From positions 179,862,001 to 179,926,000 of the forward strand of contig OZ024742.1 of NCBI GenBank assembly GCA_964016885.1: a stretch of DNA of 64,000 nucleotides, read 5' to 3'. Position numbers and translations under genes: made by a program. The DNA comes from Eledone cirrhosa (lineage: Eukaryota). The notes below the pieces were generated by a model. It ran no database searches, had not been told where the DNA came from, and worked only from the letters and a program-made list of their open reading frames with translations. Positions 1 to 54,614 of this stretch are shown here, piece by piece. The first letter of the stretch is position 1; every line of letters starts with the position of its first letter.

Positions 1-2371
1 CTACTCTCTGATCATGACATGGTTCTCTGTGACCTGAGATTCCACCGTCCAATATACAAACCCAATGTCATCTCTCCTGTCCATCCGTTTGACGCTATGG
101 ATTTCCACAATGCAAACTGGGAAGCGATCAGTCATGATCTTGCACATGTCGACTGGTCCTTCACCCACACTCATACACCCACTAACATCAAAAAGTCCTG
201 GCAGACATTTGTGGACACTGTTACAAACATATGTGCAAAACACACCCCATTAAGAACTATAAACAAATCTAAGAGCAGAATCCCTAGAAATAGAAAAACG
301 CTCATCAGGAAAATTAAGAGAACGAACAAAAAAATCAACAAGCTGAAATACTGTCAGCAGCAACACATCAACTTGACTGCCATTTCATCACTAGAGATTA
401 AAAAACATAACCTCCAAAACAACATGATGTCTCTCATCAACAATCAGAGAAGAGCTGAAGAGGCCTGGGCCATTGAGAAGATCAAACTCAATCCCAAAGT
501 GTTCTTTTCATTTGCAAAAAAAAACACAAAATCACTGGCTCTACTGTTGGCCCTCTAATTGATGAAAATGGCACTCTTCAAGACAATGCTAAAACCATGG
601 GTGAGATACTGCAGAAACAATACTGCTCTGTTTTCAGCAATCCTGATATGGCCGATCTGGGCTGTATCGGCGATGTTACTCCCCATTACACCTTATCGGA
701 CATAACGTTTGGCGCCCCTGATGTCTTAGCGGCAATAAAGGAAATCAAGCATAATTCAGCAGTAGGTCCCGATAGGTTCCCTGCTTGTGTCTTGAAGGCG
801 TGTCAACACCAACTTGCATCTCCTCTTGCCAATCTGTGGCGGAACTCACTGGATGCTGGATATGTGCCAGAAAACCTTCTATCCCAGTCTGTTGTCCCAG
901 TTTTCAAAAAAGGAAACAAATCCCTTGCCGTGAATTACCGTCCAATCTCACTCACCTGTCATATCATTAAGGTATTTGAGAGAGTGGTGAGATCGCGAAT
1001 GACCCACTTCCTTGAGAGTAACAATATGCTGAACTCCAACCAGCATGGATTCCGTAATGGAAGGGATTGCCTGACGCAGCTACTGCATCACTTTGATGAT
1101 ATTTTGAGAGCCTTGGGAGAGGGTTCCAACACTGATGTTATCTACCTTGATTTCAGCAAGGCCTTTGACAGGGTTGATCATAACATTCTACTGAGAAAAC
1201 TGTCCAATATTGGTGTCACTGGAAAGCTGCTGCAGTGGATCAAGAGCTTCCTGTCAAACAGAACCCAACATGTTGTAGTTGAAGGAGTCAAATCCAGCCC
1301 AGCCAAAGTCAGTAGTGGGGTCCCACAAGGCACTGTGTTGGGCCCACTTCTCTTCATCATCTATATTAATGACATCACTGACATCATCAAACACAGCAAC
1401 ATTAACATTTTCGCTGATGATTCCAAGCTCCAAAAGGTCAACAATGGCTTGGATGACCGGATAAGACTTCAGTCAGACCTACTGGCTGTTACCCAATGGG
1501 CGGAAAAGAACAACATGTTACTGAACGAAGACAAATTCGAACTGATCCACTTTGGAAAAGAGGATGCTCTGAAACTCCCGTACTCCCTTCCCTCCGGGGA
1601 AACTCTCGTGGCATCTAACAACATCAGAGACTTGGGAGTAACCGTGGACAGCAACATAAGCTGGGCCACGCATATAAGCAGCAAAGTTGACATGGCCCGC
1701 AGAATGTGTTCCTGGATCCTCAGAACCTTCCAGTCGAGAGATTCCACACCATTATCCTTCTCTTCTCTACTTTTGCCCGACCACACCTTGAATACTGTTG
1801 TCCACTGTGGTCTCCCCACACGAAACAAAGTATCATGAAACTTGAAGCTCCTCAAAGGGCAATCACGAAAAAGATAGATGGCATGTCAGACCTTGACTAC
1901 TGGGGTCGACTAGAAAAGCTGAAACTTTACTCACTCCAACGTCGCCGTGAGCGTTATATTATCTGCATGATGTGGAAAATTTTCCATCATCACTGCCCAA
2001 ATGATGTTGGCATCGCCTTCAAAATACACCCAAGGCTTGGGCCCCCTGTTATCCGTCCCATACAAAAATCTAAATCGCAACTCATAACAACAATACGGCA
2101 CAATTATTTCACCTCAATTGGCCCTGTTCACTTCAACAACACACCAGGACACGTCAAAACAGAAACTGACCACACAAAATTCAAGAAGTCTTTGGACAAA
2201 TTCCTCCAAGTAATCCCGTACAAACCACCCACACCTGGATATGTCTCCGCAAACAGTAATTCTCTTCTCGAATGGGCCATGGTGCCCAAATCCTGAATTG
2301 AAAGACTTCGCCAGGTGGTGCTATTAAGTTAGACATGGCCTGGGCCAATACTGGCAAAAACATTTCAAAGT
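1..2371 (+). mobile_element. CR1-group LINE, 3' part of ORF2 (reverse transcriptase) plus short 3' UTR; two frameshifts
   Basis: ORFs 19-558, 597-1838 and 1706-2296 join into one ORF2. Motifs: GPD..PA.VLK, NYRPISLT, QHGFR.GRDC, YLDFSKAFDRVDH, GVPQGTVLGPLLF, FADD, then RPHLEYC..LWSPH and LYSLQRRRER typical of CR1-like elements. Frameshifts at an A-run (~520) and near 1750. Ends in (TA)n. Confidence 0.92.
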
Positions 2372-3342: not shown

Positions 3343-3344
<2 letters not shown>

Positions 3345-4216
3345 TAAGTTAAGAATGTACATCCACATATGTATACTGAAATACTAGTATGCATATGAAT
3401 ACACACATACGTGTACATATGTAGATGTACCGAGTTTTTCACTGGACACTTTACTGTGAGTGTCTAGCTATTCTGTATGTAAACACACAGACAAACCGGT
3501 TTTTAGAGTCATACTGGTTTTCGAGGGAAACACCTTTCCTCTATTCTCCAGAAAGCCAGACAGGAATATTGGACTAGTTTCGATGTTGTTACATCTCATC
3601 AGCAATATTTACCTATCTTCCGGCCTTTCTAGAGAATCGTAAAAGCACTTATCGTTATATGCTTTTTCTATGAAAATTAGTAGTGGGCAGACTAATTTGC
3701 ATAGAGTGTGAGTACGTACCGGTTCAGCGGAGACGATCAAAATAAATAACGAAACGAAATTAAATTTCGTTTCGTTTGTAACTCACTTTTGTATGACTGA
3801 CGCTTAAACAATTAAGTTAAGAATGTACATCCACATATGTATACTGAAATACTAGTATGCATATGAATACACACACACGTGTACATATGTAGATGTACCG
3901 AGTTTTTCACTGGACACTTTACTGTGAGTGTCCACCTATTCTGTATGTAAACACACAGACAAACCGGTTTTTAGAGTCATACTGGTTTTCGAGGAAACGC
4001 CTTTCCTCTATTCTCCAGAAAGCCAGACAGGAATATTGGACTAGTTTCGATGTTGTTACATCTCATCAGCAATATTTACCTATCTTACTAATTTTCATAG
4101 AAAAAGCATATAACGATATGTGCTTTTACGATTCTCTAGAAAGGCCGGAAGATAGGTAAATATTGCTGATGAGATGTAACAACATCGAAACTAATCCAAT
4201 ATTCCTGTCTGGCTTT

Positions 4217-4218
<2 letters not shown>
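3343..4218 (-). mobile_element. HHR-bearing repeat family A: ~468-bp unit x1.6 plus an inverted partial copy (retrozyme-like / PLE pLTR-like)
   Basis: attaagttaagaatgtac starts at both 3343 and 3811. 4085-4218 is the reverse complement of ~3551-3682. Three HHR cores. Flanked by (TA)n on both sides. Confidence 0.85.
3565..3609 (-). ncRNA. Minimal type I hammerhead ribozyme (copies at 4032-4076 minus and 4159-4203 plus, the last with a stem III mismatch)
   Basis: Minus strand reads aatattg-CTGATGA-gatg(taacaa)catc-GAAA-ctag-TC-caatatt: 7-bp stem I, 4-bp stem II, palindromic ACTAGT stem III, GUC cleavage triplet. Confidence 0.9.
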
Positions 4219-5487
<1,269 letters not shown>

Positions 5488-6545
5488 AATATATAAGATC
5501 AAAAGATGGTTAAAGGAGTTCCATGTATTTTATTATGCGCATTTCAAAAACAAACATCATCATGCAATAATATTTGTGTTTTCATCAGATAAAACAGGAG
5601 GACATGATATGAACGCTAAAAAAACACTTGTGGATAGTGCAGTTTTAAATCAACATATGAAAAGTAATTTTAGATTGATGTGTGATATTGGGAAAAATAT
5701 TTTATTTAGAGAGGGGGGTGGAAAGGATGAAAAAAGGGGAGGGGATGAGAGTGAAGGTGGAGAGGGAGAGATGGGTGATAGAGAGAAAGAGATAGTTAAA
5801 AAAAAAAAAAAAAAAAATCATATACAAACCTTAACTTCACATTATTTTTCTCAAATCCTTCAATACACAAACCTTAATAATTTTTTCTCTTCGTTAATTT
5901 TCAAATTTCCATAATACTTGTAAACATACACACAATTTTTTTTTGACGTTAGAATATTCATCCGCAATTATTATTTTTTTCTCTCTATCATCAAACTTTT
6001 TAATCTCAATACATATTAACTCCCTCTCCTTCTTCGTATATATTTTCCCCTTCGTTAATTTTCAAATTCTTTTAATTTATACATTATCTTCCAACGGTTT
6101 TCAACCTCTCTATGTAAAACAATATATCTTTTCTCAGTTATAAAAACTATCTCTTTCTCTCTATCACCCATCTCTCCCTCTCCACCTCCACTCTCATCTC
6201 CTCCCCTTTTCTCATCCTTTCCACCCCCCTCTCTAAATAAAATATTTTTCCCAATATCACACATCAATCTAAAATTACTTTTCATATGTTGATTTAAAAC
6301 TGCACTATCCACAAGTGTTTTTTAGCCTTCATATCATGTCCTCCTGTTTTATCTGATGAACACACAAATATTATTGCATGACGATGTTTGTTTTTGAAAT
6401 GCGCATAATAAAATACATGGAACTCCTTTAACCATCTTTTGATCTTATATATTATGTATACTCCAGTCCTACACATTGTAGAGTGCTTCTTATCCGATAT
6501 CTGCATTGCTTTATTGTACTACAATAAAACTCACCTCCTACATTA
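5488..6545 (+). mobile_element. HHR-bearing fold-back element: ~305-bp inverted arms (5488-5795 / 6145-6453), ~350-bp spacer, ~90-bp tail
   Basis: Arms are reverse complements; the ORF track shows the same peptide at 5576(+) and 6055/6294(-). Each arm carries an HHR. Flanked by (TA)n. Confidence 0.85.
6347..6413 (+). ncRNA. Type I hammerhead ribozyme (mirror copy 5528-5594 minus)
   Basis: ttttat-CTGATGA-acacacaaata...tgtttgttttt-GAAA-tgcgca-TA-ataaaa: 6-bp stem I, palindromic ATGCGCAT stem III, AUA triplet. Confidence 0.82.
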
Positions 6546-6784
6546 TATATATATATATATATATATATATGCATATATATATATGTACATGTATATATAT
6601 ATATATGCATATATATATGTATATATATATATATGCATATATCTATATGTATATATATATGCATATATATATATATATATGTATATGTATATATATATGT
6701 ATATATATATATGCATATATATATATATATATATGTATATGTATATATATATGTATATATATATATGCATATATATATATATAT

Positions 6785-9700
6785 AAACGGAAAAAATGAA
6801 ACGATATTTCATTTCCCACTCTTAGTACGGCTGTTACTTAAATATAAGTATGTACACGTACATACATATATGTATACCGACGTACAGTAGTATGTATATA
6901 TATATATATACATACATGCACACATATATATATGCACGTATGGATTCACCGAACATTTATTATAATGCTCGGTGTGTTGGGAAATGAAATATCGTTTCAT
7001 TTTTTCCGTTTATCGTTTTCGGTGCACCCGGCCGATTAACCCACTCGATATGCATATTGGGCTTCTCAGCCGTTAATATGCATAAGGTAAGTATATACGT
7101 TCAACAATCTGGCAGGAAGGTATACGTTGCTGACGATAGCTAACAAGCTTGAAACTAGTACAGCGTTCCTTTGTCAGTGTTGAACAAACGAGCAACGGTG
7201 GTTGCTAGACACTACGGCTTAATACGGGATGTTTGTTTACAAACACACCGAGCATTATAATAAATGTTCGGTGAATCCATACGTGCATATATATATGTGT
7301 GCATGTATGTATATATATATATATACATACTACTGTACGTCGGTATACATATATGTATGTACGTGTACATACTTATATTTAAGTAACAGCCGTACTAAGA
7401 GTGGGAAATGAAATATCGTTTCATTTTTTCCGTTTATCGTTTTCGGTGCACCCGGCCGATTAACCCACTCGATATGCATATTGGGCTTCTCAGCCGTTAA
7501 TATGCATAAGGTAAGTATATACGTTCAACAATCTGGCAGGAAGGTATACGTTGCTGACGATAGCTAACAAGCTTGAAACTAGTACAGCGTTCCTTTGTCA
7601 GTGTTGAACAAACGAGCAACGGTGGTTGCTAGACACTACGGCTTAATACGGGATGTTTGTTTACAAACACACCGAGCATTATAATAAATGTTCGGTGAAT
7701 CCATACGTGCATATATATATGTGTGCATGTATGTATATATATATATATACATACTACTGTACGTCGGTATACATATATGTATGTACGTGTACATACTTAT
7801 ATTTAAGTAACAGCCGTACTAAGAGTGGGAAATGAAATATCGTTTCATTTTTTCCGTTTATCGTTTTCGGTGCACCCGGCCGATTAACCCACTCGATATG
7901 CATATTGGGCTTCTCAGCCGTTAATATGCATAAGGTAAGTATATACGTTCAACAATCTGGCAGGAAGGTATACGTTGCTGACGATAGCTAACAAGCTTGA
8001 AACTAGTACAGCGTTCCTTTGTCAGTGTTGAACAAACGAGCAACGGTGGTTGCTAGACACTACGGCTTAATACGGGATGTTTGTTTACAAACACACCGAG
8101 CATTATAATAAATGTTCGGTGAATCCATACGTGCATATATATATGTGTGCATGTATGTATATATATATATATACATACTACTGTACGTCGGTATACATAT
8201 ATGTATGTACGTGTACATACTTATATTTAAGTAACAGCCGTACTAAGAGTGGGAAATGAAATATCGTTTCATTTTTTCCGTTTATCGTTTTCGGTGCACC
8301 CGGCCGATTAACCCACTCGATATGCATATTGGGCTTCTCAGCCGTTAATATGCATAAGGTAAGTATATACGTTCAACAATCTGGCAGGAAGGTATACGTT
8401 GCTGACGATAGCTAACAAGCTTGAAACTAGTACAGCGTTCCTTTGTCAGTGTTGAACAAACGAGCAACGGTGGTTGCTAGACACTACGGCTTAATACGGG
8501 ATGTTTGTTTACAAACACACCGAGCATTATAATAAATGTTCGGTGAATCCATACGTGCATATATATATGTGTGCATGTATGTATATATATATATATACAT
8601 ACTACTGTACGTCGGTATACATATATGTATGTACGTGTACATACTTATATTTAAGTAACAGCCGTACTAAGAGTGGGAAATGAAATATCGTTTCATTTTT
8701 TCCGTTTATCGTTTTCGGTGCACCCGGCCGATTAACCCACTCGATATGCATATTGGGCTTCTCAGCCGTTAATATGCATAAGGTAAGTATATACGTTCAA
8801 CAATCTGGCAGGAAGGTATACGTTGCTGACGATAGCTAACAAGCTTGAAACTAGTACAGCGTTCCTTTGTCAGTGTTGAACAAACGAGCAACGGTGGTTG
8901 CTAGACACTACGGCTTAATACGGGATGTTTGTTTACAAACACACCGAGCATTATAATAAATGTTCGGTGAATCCATACGTGCATATATATATGTGTGCAT
9001 GTATGTATATATATATATATACATACTACTGTACGTCGGTATACATATATGTATGTACGTGTACATACTTATATTTAAGTAACAGCCGTACTAAGAGTGG
9101 GAAATGAAATATCGTTTCATTTTTTCCGTTTATCGTTTTCGGTGCACCCGGCCGATTAACCCACTCGATATGCATATTGGGCTTCTCAGCCGTTAATATG
9201 CATAAGGTAAGTATATACGTTCAACAATCTGGCAGGAAGGTATACGTTGCTGACGATAGCTAACAAGCTTGAAACTAGTACAGCGTTCCTTTGTCAGTGT
9301 TGAACAAACGAGCAACGGTGGTTGCTAGACACTACGGCTTAATACGGGATGTTTGTTTACAAACACACCGAGCATTATAATAAATGTTCGGTGAATCCAT
9401 ACGTGCATATATATATGTGTGCATGTATGTATATATATATATATACATACTACTGTACGTCGGTATACATATATGTATGTACGTGTACATACTTATATTT
9501 AAGTAACAGCCGTACTAAGAGTGGGAAATGAAATATCGTTTCATTTTTTCCGTTTATCGTTTTCGGTGCACCCGGCCGATTAACCCACTCGATATGCATA
9601 TTGGGCTTCTCAGCCGTTAATATGCATAAGGTAAGTATATACGTTCAACAATCTGGCAGGAAGGTATACGTTGCTGACGATAGCTAACAAGCTTGAAACT

Positions 9701-9920
9701 AGTACAGCGTTCCTTTGTCAGTGTTGAACAAACGAGCAACGGTGGTTGCTAGACACTACGGCTTAATACGGGATGTTTGTTTACAAACACACCGAGCATT
9801 ATAATAAATGTTCGGTGAATCCATACGTGCATATATATATGTGTGCATGTATGTATATATATATATATACATACTACTGTACGTCGGTATACATATATGT
9901 ATGTACGTGTACATACTTAT
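6785..9920 (+). mobile_element. HHR-bearing family B: inverted partial copy (6785-6978) followed by ~6.9 head-to-tail copies of a 424-bp unit
   Basis: Exact 424-bp period (identical ORFs at 7229, 7653, 8077, 8501, 8925, 9349). One HHR per unit. Both ends abut (TA)n. Confidence 0.93.
7124..7166 (+). ncRNA. Minimal type I hammerhead ribozyme; identical copies start at 7548, 7972, 8396, 8820, 9244, 9668
   Basis: acgttg-CTGACGA-t-agct(aaca)agct-t-GAAA-ctag-TA-cagcgt: palindromic ACTAGT stem III, GUA triplet. Stem I extends via ctggcaggaagg/cctttgtcag and gttcaaca/tgttgaac. Confidence 0.9.
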
Positions 9921-9978
9921 ATATATATATATAATTTTAGGAATAAACAAAGAGTACTTAGAAATACATTGTTTTATT

Positions 9979-10025
9979 AGCTAACAGTGTTTCATCCATA
10001 ACTTATGGCAGGAATCATCAGAGCC
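9979..10025 (-). ncRNA. Hammerhead-like motif
   Basis: Minus: ggct-CTGATGA-t-tcc...gga-t-GAAA-cactg-TT-agct; short stem I, GUU triplet. Confidence 0.65.
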
Positions 10026-11254
10026 TATAAACAAGAGTATATCAATAGTTGCATGCTTCATCGAGCTGTGTCACCAGAACAAGGTTAAAGGACCAGCAAG
10101 GGGGTCCCGAGGCCAGCGCTCTATGGAAACAGACAGAATATATGATGCACATAATGTTATAAAATGTCTTAAAAAATAAAAAATAAAAAATTACACCAAA
10201 AATCTATCACTTAAATGGTGCAATAGATGATAAATATGTTGGGAGAGGGTAGCAAGGGATGAGTGAAGGTATTATTCAGCTTGATCACAAACAATAAAAA
10301 AAATAATGAAAAAGTACAAAAATACAGGGATAACAAAGCGATAAATATAACAAATACAAAACAATAAAGGAACAAAAAGCCCGAAAACTCTCAAAAATAT
10401 AAAACAAAGCAAAGCATAGATACATCAAAGCACAAGCATTGCAAAAACAGGGTGTACAGGCAGATTAAGAGAGTTTGCAAGCATTAATCTGTGAGAAGAA
10501 TAGTTGGTTAGCAGTGGTGCAGCCTTACATGTATGATAGTCCATATGAGGGATGGTGTACTCCAATTATATCAGCTTGTAACAGGTCGATTCTCCTTATC
10601 ATATCAGCACCCTAGGAACCACATCGATATTTTCCAGTTCCGAACGTAAGTGAGATAACACTATTTTTCCAACACCTATACCCAGGGGATTTATCACCAT
10701 AGGCCGTCTGGGATATACACCTAAAATCTAAACTAAAAAATAAAAGTACGATGAGTTAAAGAAATGTATGGTACATGTACAGCCGGCACACATGTGAGGA
10801 AATTGAAAACACGCCAGGTCACCAATAACTGGCATTCTCCAAAGTCCTCACGTTCGGTCGCTCAACCCAACGTCCCAGGTGAAATTCACTGTATGTCCAG
10901 GTTGGCGTCCAACCAATGTGTCGTACCGTATACAACTATACCACAGTAAATACAAATCGTGATGGCTATCCCGTTACATAGAGAGAAAGTGTATATAGGA
11001 AACTCCGCTTCCAGAATCATATATGGCAGAGTGAGCAGATATTGTTATAATAATAGGCGGGTTTATTAGAGTGAGTGCAAATTTCTGTATATAAGAGAGA
11101 ACTCACGGCCAAACCTGTCAATGACAGCTATGTTATTTATATGTCCACCACGGCTCTGTAGTATACTAGTTATCCTACATTGAGCTAAAAACACACTGTT
11201 ATACCAAGGGCAATATATCTGCGTGTCTGGGCATATTGATATATTTGTCAACGA

Positions 11255-11509: not shown

Positions 11510-11985
11510 TGTTAATGATCAAGAGAAAGTGATAGGAATCTAGGGGTGTGATAATAGACGGGGTATTAGAGAAATTGGGGAGGTGAGTTGAGTCCAAGAG
11601 GGGAATAGGACCCAAGACCGTGAATCAGATTTTGTTCAGTCCTGGTGCACACGGCCTGTGATACATGGTGTAAAAGGACACCCAGGACTGAAACATGTAG
11701 GGAAGAATGACGAGGAGAATAGAAATGACGGTCGACAGGAGTATCCAAACCGAGTCGTATGTCCCTAAAATGTTCGGCAAAACGGTCCGCCATACGGCGT
11801 CCCGTTTGTCCGATATTTAAAGACCCACAAAAGGAACACCATTCGGCATAGACAACGTGGGTAGATGTGCAGATGAACGAGTGGCGGATACGGAAAGAAC
11901 CGTTAAGACCTGAAAGAGTGGTGAGGGTGGAAATGAAGGGACAAGTGTTGCAATTGGAACGGAAACAAGGATGAGAGCCGAGAAG
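11510..11985 (-). mobile_element. Penelope-like element fragment, C-terminal GIY-YIG endonuclease (Neptune-like)
   Basis: Minus frame reads SFICTSTHVVYAEWCSFCGSLNIGQTGRRMADRFAEHFRDIR...PVDRHF...[17 protein letters not shown], the VVY...YIGQT.R signature of PLE endonucleases. Confidence 0.85.
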
Positions 11986-12042
11986 ACATGCATATATATA
12001 TAATATATATGTATATATATACGTATAAATATATATGTATAT

Positions 12043-12320
12043 GTCCTGTCTTCCTGCCTACTTATTAAGACTTTAGTCTTTGCTAAGTTCACTTCTAGGT
12101 TTTTGGTTTCTAGGTTTTTCTTCCATGTCCAGAATTTTGCCTCTAACTCTCTCCCTCATAGATTCAGCCATAAAGATTAGATTATCAACTTATAGAAGCT
12201 CCCATGATGTCTTCAAGGACATTCATAAGCAGAAGTGGGCTTAGGACTGAGCCCTGGTGGGCCCCAAACTGCACTTCACGTTCATCACTGTATTCACTGC
12301 CAATTATTATCTTGCTGGGT
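12043..12320 (-). mobile_element. Degenerate RTE LINE RT fragment
   Basis: HQGSVLSPLLL and NLAKTKVL match the RTE copy at 25821-27725. Confidence 0.8.
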
Positions 12321-20385: not shown

Positions 20386-23300
20386 CATCACAACCACTAC
20401 TACCAACAATGCCGCCATTGCTACTGCCACGAACATAGCCACCATCACAACCACTAACATAACTACATCAACCACCACCACCACTGCCACCACCAACACC
20501 TCCATTGCTGCCACCACCAACATAACTACCACAACCACCAACATAACCACCACAACCACCAACATAACCACCAACATAACCACCACAACCACCAACATAA
20601 CCACCACAACCACCAACATAACCACCAACATAACCACCACAACCACCAACATAACCACCACAACCACCAACATAACCACCACAACCACCAACATAACCAC
20701 CAACATAACCACCACAACCGCCAACATAACTACCACAACCACCAACATAACCACCACAACCACCAACATAACTACCACAACCACCAACATAACCACCACA
20801 ACAACCAACATAACCACCAACATAACTACCACAACCACCAGCATAACCACCAACATAACTACCACAACCACCAACATAACCACCACAACCACCAACATAA
20901 CCACCAACATAACCACCACAACCACCAACATAACTACTACAACCACCAACATAACCACCACAACAACCAACATAACCACCAACATAACTACCACAACCAC
21001 CAACATAACCACCACAACAACCAACATAACCACCAACATAACTACCACACCCACCAACATAACCACCACAACAACCAACATAACTACCAACATAACTACC
21101 ACAATCACCAACATAACTACCAACATAACCACCACAACAACCAACATAACCACCAACATAACTACCACAACCACCAACATAACCACCACAACAACCAACA
21201 TAACCACCAACATAACTACCACAACCACCAACATAACCACCACAACAACCAACATAACTACCAACATAACTACCACAATCACCAACATAACTACCAACAT
21301 AACTACCACAACCACCAACATAACCACCACAACAACCAACATAACCACCAACATAACTACCACAACCACCAACATAACCACCACAACCACCAACATAACT
21401 ACCACAACAACCAACATAACCACCAACATAACTACCACAACCACCAACATAACCACCACAACAACCAACATAACTACCAACATAACTACCACAATCACCA
21501 ACATAACCACCACAACCACCAACATAACTACCACAACCACCAACATAACTACCACAATCACCAACATAACTACCAACATAACTACCACAACCACCAACAT
21601 AACCACCACAACAACCAACATAACCACCAACATAACTACCACAACCACCAACATAACCACCACAACAACCAACATAACCACCAACATAACTACCACAACC
21701 ACCAACATAACCACCACAACAACCAACATAACTACCAACATAACTACCACAATCACCAACATAACTACCAACATAACTACCACAACCACCAACATAACCA
21801 CCACAACCACCAACATAACCACCAACATAACCACCACAACCACCAACATAACTACCACAACCACCAACATAACCACCACAACAACCAACATAACCACCAA
21901 CATAACTACCACAACCACCAACATAACCACCACAACAACCAACATAACCACCAACATAACTACCACAACCACCAACATAACCACCACAACAACCAACATA
22001 ACTACCAACATAACTACCACAATCACCAACATAACTACCAACATAACTACCACAACCACCAACATAACCACCACAACAACCAACATAACCACCAACATAA
22101 CTACCACAACCACCAACATAACTACCACAACAACCAACATAACCACCAACATAACTACCACAACCACCAACATAACCACCACAACAACCAACATAACTAC
22201 CAACATAACTACCACAATCACCAACATAACCACCACAACCACCAACATAACTACCACAACCACCAACATAACCACCACAACAACCAACATAACTACCAAC
22301 ATAACTACCACAATCACCAACATAACCACCACAACCACCAACATAACCACCACAACAACCAACATAACTACCAACATAACTACCACAATCACCAACATAA
22401 CCACCACAACCACCAACATAACTACCACAACCACCAACATAACTACCACAATCACCAACATAACTACCAACATAACTACCACAACCACCAACATAACCAC
22501 CACAACAACCAACATAACCACCAACATAACTACCACAACCACCAACATAACCACCACAACAACCAACATAACCACCAACATAACTACCACAACCACCAAC
22601 ATAACTACCACAACAACCAACATAACCACCAACATAACTACCACAACCACCAACATAACCACCACAACAACCAACATAACTACCAACATAACTACCACAA
22701 TCACCAACATAACCACCACAACCACCAACATAACTACCACAACCACCAACATAACTACCACAATCACCAACATAACTACCAACATAACTACCACAACCAC
22801 CAACATAACCACCACAACAACCAACATAACCACCAACATAACTACCACAACCACCAACATAACCACCACAACAACCAACATAACCACCAACATAACTACC
22901 ACAACCACCAACATAACTACCACAACCACCAACATAACCACCACAACCACCAGCATAACCACCAACATAACTACCACAACCACCAACATAACCACCACAA
23001 CCACCAACATAACCACCAACATAACCACCACAACCACCAACATAACTACCACAACCACCAACATAACCACCACAACAACCAACATAACCACCAACATAAC
23101 TACCACAACCACCAACATAACCACCACAACCACCAACATAACCACCAACATAACCACCACAACCACCAACATAACTACCACAACCACCAACATAACCACC
23201 ACAACAACCAACATAACCACCAACATAACCACCACAACCACCAACATAACCACCACAACCACCAACATAACCACCAACATAACCACCACAACCACCAACA

Positions 23301-24300
23301 TAACTACCACAACCACCAACATAACCACCACAACAACCAACATAACCACCAACATAACTACCACAACCACCAACATAACCACCACAACAACCAACATAAC
23401 TACCAACATAACTACCACAATCACCAACATAACCACCACAACCACCAACATAACTACCACAACCACCAACATAACCACCACAACAACCAACATAACCACC
23501 AACATAACCACCACAACCACCAACATAACCACCACAACCACCAACATAACCACCAACATAACCACCACAACCACCAACATAACTACCACAACCACCAACA
23601 TAACCACCACAACAACCAACATAACTACCAACATAACTACCACAACCACCAACATAACCACCACAACAACCAACATAACCACCAACATAACTACCACAAC
23701 CACCAACATAACCACCACAACCACCAACATAACCACCACAACAACCAACATAACCACCAACATAACTACCACAACCACCAACATAACCACCACAACAACC
23801 AACATAACTACCAACATAACTACCACAATCACCAACATAACCACCACAACCACCAACATAACTACCACAACAACCAACATAACCACCAACATAACTACCA
23901 CAACCACCAACATAACCACCACAACAACCAACATAACCACCAACATAACTACCACAACAACCAACATAACCACCAACATAACCACCACAACCACCAACAT
24001 AACCACCACAACCACCAACATAACCACCAACATAACCACCACAACCACCAACATAACTACCACAACCACCAACATAACCACCACAACCACCAACATAACT
24101 ACCACAACCACCAACATAACCACCACAACAACCAACATAACCACCAACATAACTACCACAACCACCAACATAACCACCACAACAACCAACATAACCACCA
24201 ACATAACTACCACAACCACCAACATAACCACCACAACAACCAACATAACCACCAACACTACCATGAGTGCATCAATAAATATTAATCCCACCACCATAAC
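20386..24300. repeat. 3.9-kb minisatellite of 21-nt (ACCACCAACATAACYACCACA) and 12-nt (ACCAACATAACY) units
   Basis: Directly visible; all unit lengths are multiples of 3. Confidence 0.96.
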
Positions 24301-25727
24301 AAGACCATAAAGGTTATTCTTTCTTCATGTCTCTCCAACCATACCAGGATACAATCACACAATAAACACTGATAAATGTTTGGCAGATTAAATTAATGTT
24401 AACCATTGAAAAATCAATAATAAAAAATACATTGTATCAATTAGTTGACTGAATAATTAATTAGTAATAATCAAATATAATTTTAATGGCAAGAGATGGA
24501 AATGGTGGAATGGGTAGAGAAGACTGTAGGTGTGGTGTGAGAATATGGGAGCTAAGTGAAGATGGAAATTAATTACACAAACATATTTTTCATTAAATAA
24601 ATACTAAATCACAGAGGTTAATTCCTCAGAGACGGCGTCTGCATAAAAACAATAGTTAAGTTAGTACCAAAAGTGAGCATAAAAAATTTAATTAGTTGAA
24701 ATTGTACAAATGTTGTTTTCGTCATCGTCATTGTCATCGTCTTCATCATCATCGTCGTCTTCATCGTCATTCTATATCCATTTTCCATGCTGGCAAGAGT
24801 GGAACAGGTTATGACTGTCCAAGGCTACTTGGACTTGAAAGCCAGGTCTTGATTATATGTTTCACTTTTGGCATATTTTCTATAGACAGATACCCTTCCA
24901 AACACCAACTTCTTTACAAAGTGTACTTGGTGTATTTGATCATGGCACTATCACTATCACTTACAGAGCACAGTGGGTGCATTTTATCATAGTAACAGCA
25001 CTGCTACTTTACAGCGTGTTCTATGTACATGTTATTGTTTCATCAGCACTAACACTTACATAGTGTTATGGGTGCATTATATTGTGGCACTAGTAATACA
25101 GCTTAATATATATAAGTAGATTTTTTTTATACTCATTTTATTAAATGTTAACACTATTTTTTTCTCTCTGATTTATAAATTCTAATATGCTAATCTATTT
25201 ATGTATAGTATTGTACATCTGTTAAGAATTCTCTTTTCACTACTTTAGAAAGAAAAATAAATTTGCCTCTATATATATGGATACATCTTGACCCCCATCA
25301 CCATCATCATCATCATCATTTTGCATCTGCCTTCCATGCTGGCATGGGTTTGGACATTCCGTCATGTTCCAAGTGCAGATGGGTGCAGCAACCTGACTTG
25401 TCATTGTTTCTATGCCAACTTTTTTACAAGGTTTATTGGATACATTTTTTCATAGCACCAATATATATACAGATTATATACCTCTAGCATGGAAGATAGA
25501 CGTTAAACGATGATGATGATGATGATGATGATGTTTCATGTGTGTATGTGTGACATCAACACTAAGACTTTACTAGGTATACTGGGTGTGTGCTTTTTTT
25601 TTTTTTGTTTTTATGCATACTCATAAGTGTTGGACATTTATGTTATAATTAATTACTTTTTCTTTATAGACACACACATATATATACATACATACATGTG
25701 TACAAATGTATATAGACACACACACAC

Positions 25728-25780
<53 letters not shown>

Positions 25781-25820
25781 ATATATATATAGAATATATA
25801 TATACAATATATATAGAAAG

Positions 25821-28234
25821 TTGAAGCATGTTCTACAACGTGAGGACCAAAAACGTGAGGTGTTCAGGATTGCCAGGCAATGTGTCAAGGAAAACCGTGA
25901 TATTGTCGGGGAGAAGTGTGTGCTTAACGATGATGGCATACCTGCCATCACCGACGCTGATAAGAAGGTAGCTTGGAAGTGTCACTACGAAAGGCTTCTA
26001 AATGAGGAGAACAAATGGGAGAAAGACAGTCTCCCCCACATCGACCCAATAGAGGGACCAGCAGTGTTAGTCCAGGGTAGTACAATAAGCAAGGCAATCA
26101 AAGATATGAAGACGGGTAAGGCGGCTGGTCCTTCGGAAATAGTTGCTGAGATGCTGAAGGCATCTGGTTCGGTGGGACACACCATGGTCACCCGGATAGT
26201 TAACCAAGTCGTACAGAATGGGGTTGTTCCGAAGGACTGGCGTAGCAGCATCATCGTTAACTGCTATAAGGGAAAAGGAGATGCCCTAGATAGGAGTAAC
26301 TATAGAGGCATTAAATTAATCGACCAGGTCATGAAGGTCACGGAAAAAGTAATAGCGCAACTAATCAGAGAGAGAATTGATCTAGATGAAATGCAGTTCG
26401 GATTTGTGTCAGGCAAAAGTACCACAGACGCTCTTTTCATTGTACGACAACTACAGGAGAAGTACCTAGCTAAAAGTAAACCCCTATACTTAGCTTTCAT
26501 CGACTTGGAGAAAGCCTTCGACAGAGTCCCCCGTTCCATTATCTGGTGGTCTCTTAGAAAACTAGGTGTTGACGAATGGCTTGTGAGAGCTATACAAGCC
26601 ATGTATAAAGAAACAGTCAGTAAGGTTAGAATTAACAACGAATATAGTGAAGAGTTTAGCGTAAAAGTTGGTGTCCATCAGGGCTCTGTTCTTAGCCCCC
26701 TACTATTTATTATTGCCCTTCAGGCTATAACAGAGGAGTTCAAGACCGGCTGCCCATGGGAACTCCTATACGCAGATGATCTAACGCTCATAGCTGAATC
26801 AATGACCGAACTAGAGAAGAAATTCCAAACATGGAAGCACGGCCTAGAATCAAAAGGCCTTAAAATTAACCTGGCTAAGACTAAAGTTCTAGTTTGTAGG
26901 AAAGAAAATAAGGCGGGAGTCCCATCTGGGAAATGGCCATGCTCAGTGTGTAGGAAAGGCGTAGGTAGAAACTCCATTTTATGTCCCAAATGCAAAGTAT
27001 GGGTGCATAAAAGATGTAGTGGGATCACAGGTAAGCTAACTAAGAACTTAGATTTTACATGTGGCCGGTGCTCTGGTGCAATAAGTAGCAGCAAGGGCCC
27101 ACAAAATACTAGCTCCTTCAACTGCGCAGAGGGTTCTATAGAAATAGTGGACAGCTTCCGTTACCTGGGTGACAAAATCAGCAGTGGGGGAGGGTGCTCT
27201 GAAAGTACAGTAGCTAGAGTCAGAACTGGATGGAAAAAGTTCAGAGAGCTTATACCATTATTAGCCGCTAGAGGGTTCTCCCTAAAAATGAAAGGCAGGT
27301 TATACGATGCCTGCATACGAACAGCAATGCTGCATGGCAGTGAGACCTGGGCATTGTGTGCAGAGGATATACGCAGACTGGAGAGGAACGAAGCTTGCAT
27401 GCTCCGCTGGATGTGCAATAGTAATATACGTGAACGGCAAAGCATAAACGAACTAAGGAAAAAATTAGAAATAAGAGGGATCAGATGTTGTTTACTCGAG
27501 AGAAGGCTACGTTGGTACGGTCACGTGATGCGCATGAAAGACGACAGCTGTATAACAAAGTGCAGGGCAATAAAGATAGACGGTAGCCACGGAGTAGGCA
27601 GACCCAGAAAAACATGGGACGAGCTGATAAATTCCGACCTCACACGCTTACACCTCTCCAAGACAATGTCACTGGACCGAGACCTTTGGCGGTACTCAGT
27701 AATAGAGAAGACCCGCCTTACCTAAATACAAAGTAAAAACCTACTACAGTCAGTAGGCATCTCTATCAACCCCCCCCGTCCCACCACCTCCACCCCATCC
27801 ACACCGCCCCTTTCAATGTACAGTTATGTTGGTCCCACAACATCCAGGCCGAAACAAATGAGATCGTGTAGGTGTCACGACAAAAAAACACACAGTCCAC
27901 GCTGTAAATGTGGCCGTGTAGGCAACACGGTAAAAACCTCCCAGCCCCACACTGTAAATGTGGTTGGTGTTAGGAAGGGCATCCAGCTGTAGAAAACCCG
28001 CCAGACAGTCCACGCTGTAATGTGGCCGTGTAGGCAACACGGTAAAAACCTCCCAGCCCCACACTGTAAATGTGGTTGGTGTTAGGAAGGGCATCCAACT
28101 GTAGAAAACCCGCCAGACAGTCCTATGCGAGCAAGACAACCACTCTTGCCTCAAGTGGGAAAACCCCCGTCCAAACCCATGCAAGCGTGGAACACGGACG
28201 CTAAACCTGATGATGATGATGATGATGATGATGA
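25821..28234 (+). mobile_element. RTE-clade LINE, 5'-truncated (no APE domain): intact 634-codon RT frame, 3' UTR, (TGA)n tail
   Basis: KGKGD..DRSNYRGIKL, QFGF..GKSTTDA, FIDLEKAFDRVPR, GVHQGSVLSPLLF, YADD, HGSETW, RRLRWYGHV.R, GRPRKTW. ~113-bp tandem duplication in the 3' UTR (27893-28122). Sits in a TA/TG tract. Confidence 0.95.
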
Positions 28235-40009: not shown

Positions 40010-40665
40010 TTGGAAATTAGAATAACAACAAATAACAACAACACCCATTCCATTCATTTTTTTCTGTAAACAGAAAAAATGAATGGAATAACAACACCAC
40101 CCAAACAAACAACACTGACCTAAGAGAAGTATAAATAAACAAATAAATACATACACAAGGACAATAACAACAAACACATATAAACACACACTAGTAAACT
40201 AAGATAGAATACAATAACCAATACACAGTCACCCAAACACGAACACACATCAAACAAAACACTATATAAACACGCAAACGCATGCGCAGAGAAGACAAAA
40301 AAATAAATAAACAGACTAAATAAAGATGGCGTAGGCATACAATACAACGGGAGGAAATATGATAGCACCACTGACGATGTTGCAGATATGCAACGAAAGA
40401 ACTTTGTTAGACTATATATATGTGTTTGTGTCTATATTGTACCTGTATTTTTTACCGTTGGTCAGTCAATGGTAACATTGAGGACCGAATAAATTAAATT
40501 AACCGATATAAAAGACACAGAAGCGAAAACCAACCAAACAGTGAGTGTGTTCTGTTATTAATTCTGGCAATATTATTACACAAATATGAACCTCCCCAAG
40601 TATAACAATATTTGTTTCGACACACGATTTCATATAAAAAACCTCGCAAAACTAATTCATCGCCG
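40010..40665 (+). mobile_element. Penelope 3' end / pLTR copy
   Basis: Encodes the terminal NRKNEWNNNT codons and matches 48830-49447; contains CTGACGA-tgttgca/tgcaac-GAAA. Confidence 0.8.
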
Positions 40666-41617: not shown

Positions 41618-42897
41618 ATACTTTTGGAGGGTCATGTTGCCAATAAGAAACACACGCACCTGTTGCTTTCACTTCAATTTATTCTAATAAATTTATAAAT
41701 TTAGGAATTTATAAATTTCAGGTTGGTTGGTTGGTTCCACAACCAGATGGTTGTTTATATATTATCAAAGTTCTTTCGTCACACATTCTGTGACTGGGGA
41801 TTCCTTTCTTTGTTTCTGTGCCTCTCCTTTGTTCTGTCCTACGCCATTTTGTTTCTGTGTGTGTGTTGTGTGCTCAGTCTGCGCATGCGCCACATCCGGG
41901 TGTCTGTGTGTGTTTATATTCGTTTATTTATTTGTTTATTTACATGTTACAGGTTGGTTGTTTGTTCTATGTGCGTGTGTGTTTTCATTTTGTCCTTAAT
42001 TGTAAGTTGTGTTGTTGCTGTTCCAGTCATGTTTTCTATTTAATTTTGGTTGTAATTCTTTTATATTTATTGCCTCTGTGATTTGTCTAAACATTGCGTC
42101 TTTTCTGTGTGTAGATTCTATTTTTATTTCTATGTTCTCTAATTTACCCTTATGTTCTATTTTAGCATGTTGGTAGAGTACAGATGATTCTTTACTATCT
42201 TGAAGGTCTCGCCAGTGTTCATTTATCCGTTCCCCTACACTACGAGCTGTCTCACCTATGTACACTATATTTTTGTCTCTACATTGTCCTTCAATACATC
42301 TTATGCTATATACTACATTTCTAGTTTTACAATTAATATGGGGGCTTAATTTACAGGTTATACATTTCTTATCTTTACAGGGGGGTCTTTGAAAAGGGTA
42401 TGTCTTGCTAATAAGTATTTTTACGGAGGTACCTGGTCTTTCTACTATCTTAATATTGAGTTTATGTTTATCTAGCGCCCTTCTAAATTTGTAAGCTAAT
42501 TCACCTCTAGGGGTTATATAGATGAACATTACACTCTGGTATTTATTGCTTTCATACCATGAGTTTATTCTATTAGCCTTATTCCTAGTTCTTTCTATTA
42601 TATTCCAAAATTTGCTCCTATACAAGGGGCAGGTCCGATTTGTATCATTATTTACCATTTTTTCCCATTTGGTTTTGGCTCCTCTATACACTCTGATTTT
42701 ATCTCTCTGATTGTAACCATAGAACTGCATACAGTGGATGAAGTGTTGCATGTGTCTCTCTAGTTCTTCGAGGTTGCACATGCGGGACACCTTTCTCATC
42801 ACTCGTACCAAATCCACAATCAGTATGTTGATTTTGGTATGGTCCGAAACAGCTGAGTTTCTGTGGATCAGATATTTGGAAGTCATGGGAATGGAGG
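41613..42897 (-). mobile_element. Penelope-like element, 5'-truncated: RT C-terminal region, GIY-YIG endonuclease (ORF 41996-42886) and pLTR
   Basis: C..C..C...NCKTRNVVYSIRC....C....VYIGETARS..ERINEH...L..H....H...R.I.EA..I....PKLNRK; flanked by (TA)n. Confidence 0.92.
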
Positions 42898-43040
42898 ATT
42901 ATATATATATATTATATATATTATATATATATTATATATATATATATATATATAGTAATAATAATAAATTTGAAGACTAAAATCCAAAGAGAGCTCGATA
43001 AGGAGAAATATATATCAAGTATATAAGAACCGTAGAGCAA

Positions 43041-47363: not shown

Positions 47364-49445
47364 GTTTAGCGAGGTTTTTTTATATGAAATCGTGTGTCGA
47401 AACAAATATTGTTATACTTGGGGAGGGTCATATTTGTGAAATATTGCCAGAATTAATAACAGAACACACTCACTGTTTGGTTGGTTTTCGCTTCTCGCTG
47501 TCTTTTATATCTGCGATCTAACTTAATCGGTCCTCAATGTTGCCATTGACTGACCGACGGTCAAAAATAATACAGATACAATATAGACACAAACACATAT
47601 ATATAGTTTACATAATTTACATAAATCTTTCGCTGCACATCTGCAACATCGTCAGTGGTATTATATTTTTTCCTCCTGTTGTGTTGTATGTCTACGCCAT
47701 TTTTTATTCAGTCTGTCTATATATTTATTTATTTATTTGCTTGTTTGTTTATTTTATTTTGTCTTCTTTGCGCATGCGTTTGCGTGTGTGTACAGTGTTG
47801 TGTGTGCTGTGTGACTAGTGTGTATAGTGTTGTGTCTGCTGGGTGACTAGTGTGTGTTTATGTGCTTGTTGTTATTGTGCTTGTGTATGTATTTATTTAT
47901 CTTATTTTATTTTATTTTATTTATTTACTTATTTATACTTCTCTTAGGTCAGTGTTGTTTGTTTGGGTGTTGTTGTTGTTCCACTCATTCTTTCTGTTTA
48001 GCTTTGGTCTTCTAATTTCTATTTCACTGGCCTCTCTGATTTGCCTATTCGCTGGGTCATTCCTATGTTTAGATATTATTCTAATTTCTATGTTGTCTAT
48101 GTTACCGTCATGTTGTTTTCTAGCATGTTCGTATAGTACTGACCCGTTATTTCGTCCTTTTAGTTCCCCCATTGTTGGTCTATCCTTTCACCTATGCTAC
48201 GAGCTGTCTCACCTATGTATGTTGTTGTCATGTTTCTGCAAGTACCCTCTGTACATCTTATGCTATAGACTACGTTTCTAGTTTTACAGTTTATCCGGGG
48301 GTTCACCTTACATATGATACATTTCCTATTGGTACAGTGGGTTTTCTTAAAAGGGTAGGTTTTGCTGATCAGGGATTTTATGGTGGTTCCTGGCTTTTCT
48401 ACCACCTTTATTTTTAAGTGGGTCTTTCTCAGGGCCTTTCTACACTGGTTAGCTAATTTCCCTCCAGGGGTGGCGTCCACAAACATGACACTCTGATATC
48501 TCTGGTTGTCGTACCATGATGTGGCCTTCCCTATCTAATGTCTAGCCCTATCTAAGCTATTCCATGATTTGCTCCTGTATAGTGGGCAAATTCCTTTCAT
48601 GTCCAGTTCTATGAGGGTCTTATACTTTTCCATGGCTCCTTCGTATACTCTGACTCTGTCTCTTTGGTTGTAGCCAGAGAACTGCATGCGGTTGATGAAG
48701 TGTTGGATGTGTCTTTCCATTTCTGTAGGGTCGCACATGCTGGACACATTCTTCATCACTCGTACCAAATCTGCGATCAGAATATTAAACTTAGCACTAC
48801 TGGACAGATAGGCAAATCAGAGAGGCCAGTGAAATAGAAATTAGAAGACCAAAGCTAAACAGAAAGAATGAGTGGAACAACAACAACACCCAAACAAACA
48901 ACACTGACCTAAGAGAAGTATAAATAAGTAAATAAATAAAATAAAATAAAATAAGATAAATAAATACATACACAAGCAAAATAACAACAAGCACATAAAC
49001 ACACACTAGTCACCCAGCAGACACAACACTATACACACTAGTCACACAGCACACACAACACTGTACACACACGCAAACGCATGCGCAAAGAAGACAAAAT
49101 AAATAAACAAACAAGCAAATAAATAAATAAATATATAGACAGACTGAATAAAAAATGGCGTAGACATACAACACAACAGGAGGAAAAAATATAATACCAC
49201 TGACGATGTTGCAGATGTGCAACGAAAGATTTATGTAAATTATGTAAACTATATATATGTGTTTGTGTCTATATTGTATCTGTATTATTTTTGACCGTCG
49301 GTCAGTCAATGGCAACATTGAGGACCGATTAAGTTAGATCGCAGATATAAAAGACAGCGAGAAGCGAAAACCAACCAAACAGTGAGTGTGTTCTGTTATT
49401 AATTCTGGCAATATTACACAAATATGACCCTCCCCAAGTATAACA

Positions 49446-52954: not shown

Positions 52955-54590
52955 GTATAAGTATGTATACGTACATACATATATGTATACAGACGTACAG
53001 TAGTATGTATATACATGCACACATATATATATATGTACGTATGGATTCACCAAACATTTATTATAATGCTCGGTGTGTTTGTAAAACAACACCCCGTATA
53101 AAGCCGTAGTGTCTAGCAACCATCGTTGCTCGTTTGTTCAACACTGACAAAGGAACGCTGTACTAGTTTCAAGCTTGTTAGCTATCGTCAGCAACGTATA
53201 CCTTCCTGCCAGATTGTTGAACGTCTGAAAGTATATACTTTCCTTATGCATATTAACGGCTGAGTAGCCCAATTTGCATATCGAGTGGGTTAATCGGCTG
53301 GGTGCACCGAAAACGATAAACAGAAAAAATGAAACGAAATTTCATTTCCCACTCTTAGTACGGCTGTTACTTAAATATAAGTATGTACACGTACATACAT
53401 ATATGTATACAGACGCACAGTAATATGTATATATATATACATACATGCACACATATATATATGTACGTATGGATTCACCGAACTTTTATTATAATGCTCG
53501 GTGTGTTTGTAAACAAACATCCCGTATTAAGCTGTAGTGTCTAGCAACCATCGTTGCTCGTTTGTTCAACACTGACAAAGGAATGCTGTACTAGTTTGAA
53601 GCTTTTTAGCTATCGTCAGCAACTTATACCTTCCTCCCAGAGTGTTGAACGTCTGAAAGTATATACTTTCCTTATGCATATTAACGGCTGAGTAGCCCAA
53701 TTTGCATATCGAGTGGGTTAATCGGCCGGGTGCACCGAAAACGATTAACGGAAAAACTGAAACGAAATTTCATATTTAAGTGACAGCCGTACTAAGAGTG
53801 GGAAATGAAAGTATATACTTTCAGGCGTTCAACAATCTGGCAGTAAGGTATACGTTGCTGACGATAGCTAATAAGCTTGATACTAGTACAGCGTTTCTTT
53901 GTCAGTGTTGAACAAACGAGCAACGATGGTTGCTAGACACTACGGCTTAATACGGGATATTTGTTTACAAACACACCGAGCATTATAATAAATGTTCGGT
54001 GAATCCATATGTACATATATATATGTGTGCATGTATCTATATATATATACATACTACTGTATGTCTGTATACATATATGTATGTACGTGTACATACTTAT
54101 ATTTAAGTAACAGCCGTACTAAGAGTGGGAAATGAAATTTCGTATCATTTTTTTCCGTTTATCGTTTTCGGTGCACCCGGCCGATTAACCCACTCGATAT
54201 GCAAATTGGGCTACTCAGCCGTTAATATGCATAAGGATAGTATATTCTTTCAGACGTTCAACAATCTGGCAGGAAGTTATACGTTGCTGACGATAGCTAA
54301 TAAGCTTGAAACTAGTACAGCGTTCCTTTGTCAGTTTTGAACAAACTAGCAACGATGGTTGCTAGACACTACGGCTTAATACGGGATATTTGTTTACAAA
54401 CACACTGAGCATTATAATAAATGTTCGGTTAATCCATACGTACATATATATATGTGTGCATGTATGTATATATATATACATACTACTGTATGTCTGTATT
54501 CATATATGTATGTACGTGCACATACTTATATTTAAGTAACATCCGTACTAAGAGTGGGAAATGAAATTTCGTTTCATTTTTTTCCGTTTA
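52955..54590. mobile_element. Second locus of family B (~430-bp unit): ~2 minus-strand then ~2 plus-strand copies, slightly diverged
   Basis: HHRs at 53155-53197(-, intact), 53583-53625(-, GAAA to CAAA), 53852-53894(+, GAAA to GATA), 54281-54323(+, intact). Confidence 0.9.
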
Positions 54591-54614
54591 TATATATATA
54601 TAAACGTATATATA

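What the first reader, a model, noticed from the sequence alone, without database searches (positions are those of the whole stretch)
6785..9920. Seven apparently identical 424-bp units, each with a hammerhead ribozyme: retrozyme-like array
Seen: exact 424-bp period, no differences found by eye, one type I HHR per unit (7124-7166, +424n), no real coding capacity, an inverted partial copy at the left end, and (TA)n on both sides. Known: metazoan non-LTR retrozymes are tandem non-coding repeats with type I HHRs whose transcripts self-cleave to monomers and circularise, and Penelope pLTRs carry minimal HHRs. Inference: a read-through transcript is cut after GUA (7160, +424n) into 424-nt monomers/circRNAs, and the array is the product of one rolling-circle reverse transcription by a PLE RT. 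The unit is at or above the upper size I recall for animal retrozymes, and I do not know of a cephalopod description.
Basis: partly seen in the sequence, partly recalled or inferred. Interest (0 to 1): 0.9.

Follow-up and report, generated by a model that had tools for sequence, protein, structure and literature searches.

The report
Young retrozyme with Penelope insertion signature
This is a very young copy of a non-coding 424-base repeat found at thousands of sites in this mollusc genome; it carries a predicted self-cutting hammerhead RNA and has the back-to-back layout and two fixed ends of Penelope retrotransposons, so it was likely pasted in by a Penelope enzyme, probably reading a circular RNA.

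Summary
Confirmed: 6.95 identical 424-bp units (6978-9922), seven type I hammerhead motifs, an exact inverted arm (6783-6978), (TA)n flanks, no frame over 64 aa. Rfam misses the ribozyme; compensatory stem changes in related families support it. It is one young insertion of a dispersed family (1,830 exact ribozyme cores, 3,522 element-to-TA junctions of one type). Insertions are head-to-head arms ending at two fixed sites 59 nt apart, one of each: 26 of 33 pairs A+B, 1 B+B, 0 A+A, 6 unassigned. A coding Neptune/Nematis-type Penelope element in the same genome follows that rule with a 60-nt tail, and one unique chimera fuses exactly one permuted unit to it. Arms pass the ribozyme cut site without stopping, and rare variants fill every unit of both arms at one locus, favouring a circular monomer template; uncut multimers and later tandem expansion remain rivals. 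No RNA or cleavage data. Verdict: new member of the non-LTR retrozymes, ordinary in size; its value is genomic evidence for how Penelope enzymes move retrozymes, plus a testable enzyme-template pair. No relevant earlier scan finding came up in three look-ups.

The parts
6544..6782 (.). (TA)n-rich target tract, left side
6783..6978 (-). Inverted arm, 196 bp, unit positions 82-277 (numbered from the predicted cut, 7161=1); outer end is the family's B end, joined to (TA)n with 3 bases of microhomology
6978..9922 (+). Main arm, 6.95 identical 424-bp units, from unit position 242 to the family's A end (218), joined to (TA)n with about 5 bases of microhomology; head-to-head junction at 6978 shares 1 base
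7124..7166 (+). Type I hammerhead motif, repeated at +424n (last 9668-9710): 6-bp stem I, stem II with U.U at its base, 2-bp stem III with palindromic loop, predicted cut after GUA at 7160
7379..7437 (+). 59-nt tail between the A and B ends (repeated at +424n); inferred span between two RT start sites
9923..9931 (.). Short (TA)n remnant, right side
52956..54591 (.). Second, older insertion of the same family (92-94%): minus arm ends at A, plus arm ends at B, rearranged junction
3343..4218 (.). Distant sister family (467-bp unit, 61% over 245 bp), head-to-head in a TA tract, hammerhead with compensatory stems

Best explanation
The array is one very recent insertion of a high-copy, non-coding family with a predicted type I hammerhead, likely pasted into a (TA)n tract by the RT/endonuclease of a Penelope-like element that probably copied a circular 424-nt RNA. 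Shown: identical units, two arms joined head to head, outer ends at two fixed unit positions (A 218, B 277), one of each per insertion, TA target, no ORF. Inferred steps: (1) read-through transcripts self-cleave after GUA and are ligated to circles, as shown for coral, mussel and axolotl retrozymes; (2) a PLE protein, probably a dimer, nicks both strands of the TA tract and starts cDNA at A from one strand and at B from the other; (3) each RT rolls round the template for a variable distance (0.5 and 6.9 turns here); (4) the two cDNA ends are joined with little microhomology. Odds: PLE-driven insertion about 0.9; circular monomer template given that, about 0.65; the Neptune/Nematis-type family of L131 as the actual partner, about 0.45.
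For: Fixed ends genome-wide: 3,522 B-to-TA and 1,443 A-to-TA exact junctions, controls 0. In 48 loci chosen by unit or ribozyme, 33 head-to-head pairs: 26 A+B (2 are segmental duplicates), 1 B+B, 0 A+A, 6 with an end elsewhere (p 4e-7 for 26 of 27). In 40 loci chosen by the B end, 21 pairs: 14 A+B, 0 B+B, 7 other. A coding PLE family here has a 60-nt tail, TA target and 20 A+B, 2 B+B, 0 A+A, 4 unassigned pairs in 40 loci. PMC11167929 maps the PLE tail to two internal RT start sites. Chimera L154: exactly one permuted unit fused by 3-bp microhomology 5' of a truncated copy of that PLE, junction unique in the genome. Arms do not stop at the cut site: 6 stops against 6.4 expected in 137 arms. Single-unit bottleneck: two rare variants in 4 of 4 and 5 of 5 units of the two arms of L049; the window's derived variant is in all units of only 3 loci (26 matches). 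Stems covary: 11 of 16 pairs change on both sides, slid controls at most 2.
Against: No RNA, cleavage or long-read data. PMC11167929 found uncut RNA to be the dominant substrate in vitro, hammerhead mutants harmless, and no strand difference in start site. Arrays also grow after insertion: L110 has a two-unit periodicity absent from its other arm, L042 a variant in 6 of 7 units of one arm only. 41 of 544 arm comparisons at diagnostic sites disagree, including young L035; L130 has two private stem II changes in both ribozyme copies. The unit shows no sequence likeness to any PLE 3' end tried; the chimera is 1 in 60 loci of that PLE and a deletion could also make it. No excess of stops at whole turns. 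Core conservation within the family is not significant (0 of 12 v 59 of 309, p 0.13). The covariation set was partly picked by a stem-requiring motif search.
Confidence: 0.58

Rival explanations
1. Same PLE-driven insertion with two start sites, but the template was an uncut linear multimer transcribed from a homogeneous donor array; the ribozyme is not needed for the move.
For: PMC11167929: unprocessed RNA is the main substrate in vitro. A donor exists: the C4 locus has 12.6 + 6.6 units with 3 differences from the window's unit. Passing the cut site without stopping fits this equally. L130 was copied with a weakened stem II.
Against: A new mutation would sit in one unit of a multimer, yet variants fill all units of both arms (L049; the window's 3-locus lineage). 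Hammerhead stems are kept by compensatory change across families 61-80% alike. Similar ribozymes cut well as dimers (PMC7229834).
Confidence: 0.22
2. A short PLE-made insertion (about one unit) later grew to seven units by unequal crossing-over or slippage, as a minisatellite.
For: L110 and L042 show later expansion; two old loci hold 19 and 35 diverged units. The 2026 preprint proposes local amplification for retrozyme arrays.
Against: The longest uniform arrays are in the youngest lineage, and both arms of C4 and L049 are multi-unit with almost no private change, which needs two quick independent expansions.
Confidence: 0.13
3. The seven copies are an assembly expansion of one or two.
For: Zero differences between units; no read spanning the locus could be examined.
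Against: Other loci have multi-unit arms whose units differ from each other (L040, L042, L068, L074), so such arrays are real; both ends of this one follow the family rule.
Confidence: 0.04
4. The unit is the ordinary pLTR of a coding PLE and these are its truncated ends.
For: Spacing of ribozyme, A end and B end resembles a pLTR; only 11 coding references were tried.
Against: 0 of 64 unpaired arms has a coding PLE body directly 5'; arms run up to 12.6 units head to tail with no ORF; no likeness to the PLE 3' ends held.
Confidence: 0.03

Closest known systems
Metazoan non-LTR retrozymes (Cervera and de la Pena 2020, PMC7229834; mussel 350-390 bp, axolotl 330/350 bp)
   Same: Non-coding low-GC tandem unit, one canonical type I hammerhead each, thousands of copies, strongly self-paired monomer (z -8.45, partly from TA palindromes). 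The ribozyme resembles axolotl HHR_Amex2 (2-bp helix III, U.U at the base of helix II).
   Different: No target-site duplication seen; instead TA-tract insertion, inverted second arm and two fixed ends, none of which I found in the parts of the retrozyme papers I read. Circular RNA not shown here. Slightly longer than 400 nt.
Penelope-like elements with tail and inverted 5' copy (Craig et al. 2021, PMC8557442; Frangieh et al. 2024, PMC11167929)
   Same: Tandem and inverted arms, (TA)n target, tail at one end only, internal start sites downstream of a hammerhead.
   Different: No ORF; tail 59 nt, not 30-40; both ends show short microhomology to the target, whereas PAc starts without homology; canonical rather than minimal hammerhead; up to 12.6 exact units per arm.
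Vertebrate retrozymes as non-autonomous PLE derivatives (bioRxiv 10.64898/2026.07.22.740005)
   Same: Same conclusion on origin; unit size in range; most families reach at most seven units.
   Different: That work rests on co-occurrence and pLTR homology in vertebrates, insects and a coral, with no mollusc and no analysis of ends; here the link is the insertion signature and a chimera, and pLTR homology was not found.
L1 twin priming (recalled, not from a call)
   Same: Head-to-head inversion with 0-7 bp overlap or small gaps at most junctions.
   Different: Second start site is fixed, and one arm does not stop where the other starts (B-arm 5' end near 218 in 4 of 37, A-arm 5' end near 277 in 1 of 37).

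Membership tests
non-LTR retrozyme | Tandem non-coding unit of a few hundred bp, GC under 50% | tested here: met
   424 bp, 38% GC, frames at most 64 aa
non-LTR retrozyme | Canonical type I hammerhead in each unit | tested here: met
   Core in 7 of 7 units; 11 of 16 pairs covary in 7 distinct sequences; no Rfam hammerhead hit
non-LTR retrozyme | Dispersed multi-copy family, no LTR architecture or ORF | tested here: met
   1,830 exact cores; 88 loci mapped as arms only. PBS and PPT were not searched for separately
non-LTR retrozyme | Self-cleavage of the transcript | not testable with these tools
   Stems I and II form in the circular fold, stem III does not; a dimer fold pairs across the two ribozymes; prediction only
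non-LTR retrozyme | Monomer circular RNA in tissues | not testable with these tools
   No raw RNA run was offered
non-LTR retrozyme | Target-site duplication over 4 bp (optional in the original description) | tested here: inconclusive
   Both ends lie in (TA)n, where a duplication cannot be read
PLE-mobilised non-autonomous element | [quoted passage not shown] | tested here: met
   A 218 / B 277, 26 A+B v 1 same-type pair
PLE-mobilised non-autonomous element | Inverted 5'-truncated copy and microsatellite target | tested here: met
   33 head-to-head pairs in 48 loci; TA flanks
PLE-mobilised non-autonomous element | Sequence likeness to the pLTR or 3' end of an autonomous partner | tested here: inconclusive
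   None to the PLE ends held, but only part of the genome's PLE families was sampled; one chimera
autonomous PLE (pLTR of) | RT and GIY-YIG ORF attached to the repeat | tested here: not met
   0 of 64 unpaired arms; no long frame in the unit

The most novel reading that the evidence does not exclude
This family records the retrozyme life cycle in DNA: a dimeric Neptune/Nematis-type PLE protein grips one 424-nt ribozyme-made circle, primes one target strand at A and the other at B about 60 nt away, and both RTs roll round the circle; the coding family of L131 is the partner, as the one-turn chimera suggests. That would be direct genomic evidence of circular RNA retrotransposition in an animal and would explain the one-ended PLE tail.
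Probability: 0.3. Interest if true: 0.75.

Novelty: new member of a known kind. Interest (0 to 1): 0.5.

Why it matters
Which enzyme moves animal retrozymes, and whether it reads the circle, is left open in PMC7229834 and the 2026 preprint; how PLE tails and inverted arms arise is left open in PMC8557442. This family gives countable genomic rules (one A and one B end per insertion, no stop at the cut site, variants fixed across both arms) and a named enzyme-template pair that fits the in vitro assay of PMC11167929. The element itself is an ordinary kind of selfish repeat with no sign of a host function.

Tried and rejected
Rfam: no hammerhead hit, only TA-driven miRNA matches below cut-off. 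Isolated ribozyme fold is no better than shuffles (z -0.09). Sequencing runs: no RNA holder listed. Of 4 runs laid, two RNA-guess runs and one raw Hi-C run touched only TA-rich ends, no evidence either way; X1 contigs hold the unit with many variants and 20 loose ends running into (AT)n at the B site, but X1 may be the assembly's own source; no piece spans the array. Linear cut monomer as template: rejected, 34 of 37 A arms and 23 of 37 B arms cross the cut and 3 of 74 5' ends lie at it against 3.5 expected. L1-type twin priming and simple fold-back: rejected, either arm can be the longer (20 v 17) and 5' ends are unlinked in most pairs. Whole-turn stops: not significant in two of three windows, p 0.048 uncorrected in the widest. 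Partner by homology: blastn of the unit against held PLE 3' ends and nhmmer with a 6-copy profile found none; a second PLE family (15 loci) showed none. Four of 40 further coding-PLE loci had a family arm nearby, none fused. Pfam gave nothing for three window GIY-YIG fragments and only weak RVT_1 for L131; the Atlas placed L131 with RT/HTH_animal/GIY-YIG clusters. L110's two-unit period first looked like a dimer circle; rejected because its other arm matches neither unit type. Three look-ups in earlier findings gave one unrelated note.

Full report
OBSERVATION. The array is as described: period 424, no mismatch, 6978-9922, 6.95 units. 6783-6978 is an exact inverted piece. Each of the 7 units has CUGACGA, stem II, GAAA, a 2-bp stem III, GUA and a 6-bp stem I. 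Frames stay under 65 aa. Rfam does not see the ribozyme and the isolated motif folds no better than shuffles. Support comes from relatives: older subfamilies near 80% and a sister family at 61% were found by blast, a third 310-bp family by motif. In 7 distinct sequences 95.5% of cells pair and 11 of 16 pairs change on both sides, against at most 2 in slid controls. The motif search asked for stems I and II, so this is partly circular; the outer 3-bp helix, which was not selected for, also covaries in 2 of 3 pairs.

FAMILY. The genome (3.0 Gb) holds 1,830 exact copies of the 36-nt core. I mapped 88 loci on a concatemer of the unit: 48 chosen by unit or ribozyme (two in the window; some were best hits, so biased to young and long), 40 by one end motif. 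Numbering from the predicted cut, arms end at 218 (A) or 277 (B) and run into (TA)n; exact junction patterns occur 1,443 and 3,522 times (exact patterns of different decay, so the ratio means little). Arms are joined head to head. Of 33 pairs in the first set 26 are A+B (2 are segmental duplicates), 1 B+B, 0 A+A and 6 have an end elsewhere; of 21 in the second set 14 are A+B, none B+B, 7 other. The window is a B arm of 196 bp plus an A arm of 2,945 bp. Its exact variant occurs at three loci only: here, a 19-unit locus on C4 and one on C28, so it is among the youngest.

LINK TO PENELOPE-LIKE ELEMENTS. Inverted 5' copies, TA targets and a tail at one end are PLE marks (PMC8557442, passages read), and the tail is the span between two internal RT start sites (PMC11167929, parts 1-2 of 4 read). 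A very abundant coding PLE in this genome (L131, RT plus C-terminal GIY-YIG with a CX4CX2C linker, hence Neptune or Nematis by PMC8557442) has a 60-nt tail and the same rule: 20 A+B, 2 B+B, 0 A+A, 4 unassigned in 40 loci. At L154 exactly one permuted unit (329 to 331) is fused through 3 shared bases to the 5' side of a truncated copy of that PLE; the junction is unique. A template switch explains it simply; a deletion is possible; it is 1 of 60 loci of that PLE seen. The unit shares no sequence with the PLE ends I held, so the partner is a candidate. The unit is not a pLTR of a coding element in my sample: 0 of 64 unpaired arms has a PLE body directly 5' (11 references). The 310-bp and 467-bp families also show head-to-head arms with two different ends, each in one locus where both ends could be read.

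TEMPLATE. Arms cross the cut site freely: 6 stops within 10 nt against 6.4 expected in 137 arms. That excludes a cut linear monomer and leaves a circle or an uncut multimer. For the circle: two rare variants fill 4 of 4 and 5 of 5 units in the two arms of L049, one fills 4 of 4 in L038, and each subfamily's marks are shared by both arms (503 of 544 comparisons agree), which needs a one-unit bottleneck followed by many turns. Against: PMC11167929 found uncut RNA dominant in vitro; the C4 array could serve as a linear donor; L110 and L042 show expansion after insertion; L035 disagrees between arms at a diagnostic site; L130 carries stem II changes in both ribozymes; no excess of whole-turn stops; core conservation inside the family is not significant (p 0.13). 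No RNA data were available (see Tried and rejected).

MECHANISM. Most likely: transcription through an array, ribozyme cutting (probably as a dimer), ligation to a circle, capture by a PLE protein, nicks on both strands of a TA tract, one strand primed at A and the other at B with 3-5 bases of microhomology, rolling synthesis of variable length, head-to-head joining. Ends, arms and target are shown; cutting, circle, enzyme and strand assignment are inferred.

COMPARISON AND NOVELTY. It works like, and meets every testable feature of, the non-LTR retrozymes of PMC7229834 (passages and parts 3-4 of 6 read; mussel is already a molluscan example); cleavage and circle are untested. bioRxiv 10.64898/2026.07.22.740005 (parts 1-3 of 5 read, plus a word search) already argues PLE origin and gives 51-972 bp units, with no mention of tails or molluscs. 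PMC4209133 (part 1 of 4) defines canonical against minimal motifs; this one is canonical. PMC7761336: passages only. Nine searches found no cephalopod retrozyme paper and no account of tails or inverted arms in retrozymes; the library lacks most subscription papers, and I did not see the supplements of these papers, which may list cephalopod repeats or insertion ends. A tail at one end only is known for PLEs; the counted one-of-each rule, its presence in a retrozyme and the chimera appear new.

VERDICT. Real feature; new member of a known kind; interest 0.5. The boldest reading (two-site rolling-circle priming by the L131 family) has probability 0.3 and would deserve 0.75.

Noticed in passing
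L154:1915-4948 (G000 C6): Chimera of exactly one permuted retrozyme unit and a 5'-truncated coding PLE, 3-bp microhomology, unique in the genome.
   Followed up: yes
window 3343-4218; L068:7149-8500: Sister retrozyme family, 467-bp unit, GUC or GUU cut triplet, ends near 228 and 300.
   Followed up: partly
L037:5604-8152, L069:7900-10000, L097:3694-7001: Third young hammerhead family, 310-bp unit, arrays up to 8 or more units, head to head, ends about 35-40 nt apart.
   Followed up: partly
window 9932-10100, minus strand: Another repeat's 3' end with a hammerhead-like motif (core at 10021) faces the same TA tract; a similar end flanks the family at L048. The left flank 6443-6543 resembles the end of a further PLE-like family.
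   Followed up: no
window 11566-12057, 41996-42898, 48160-48534; motifs at 40371, 47655, 49200, 50404: Broken GIY-YIG fragments of at least three PLE families, several with inverted arms and hammerhead-like cores.
   Followed up: partly
L110:1007-5319: Ten-unit arm with a two-unit periodicity, a clear case of expansion after insertion or of assembly duplication.
   Followed up: yes
L050; L052-L053: Older loci grown to about 19 and at least 35 diverged units, on the way to satellite DNA.
   Followed up: no
window 20465-24257: 3.8-kb ACC/AAC-rich tandem array (54- and 75-bp periods) with stop-free frames over 1,200 codons on both strands, one reading as Thr-rich repeats.
   Followed up: no
window 477-2296 and 25716-27725: Two non-LTR RT frames (453 aa plus a shifted tail; 669 aa), likely LINE copies.
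   Followed up: no
window 5500-6443: Long inverted pair (about 5500-5800 v 6150-6440) left of the array, possibly another head-to-head PLE insertion; seen by eye only.
   Followed up: no
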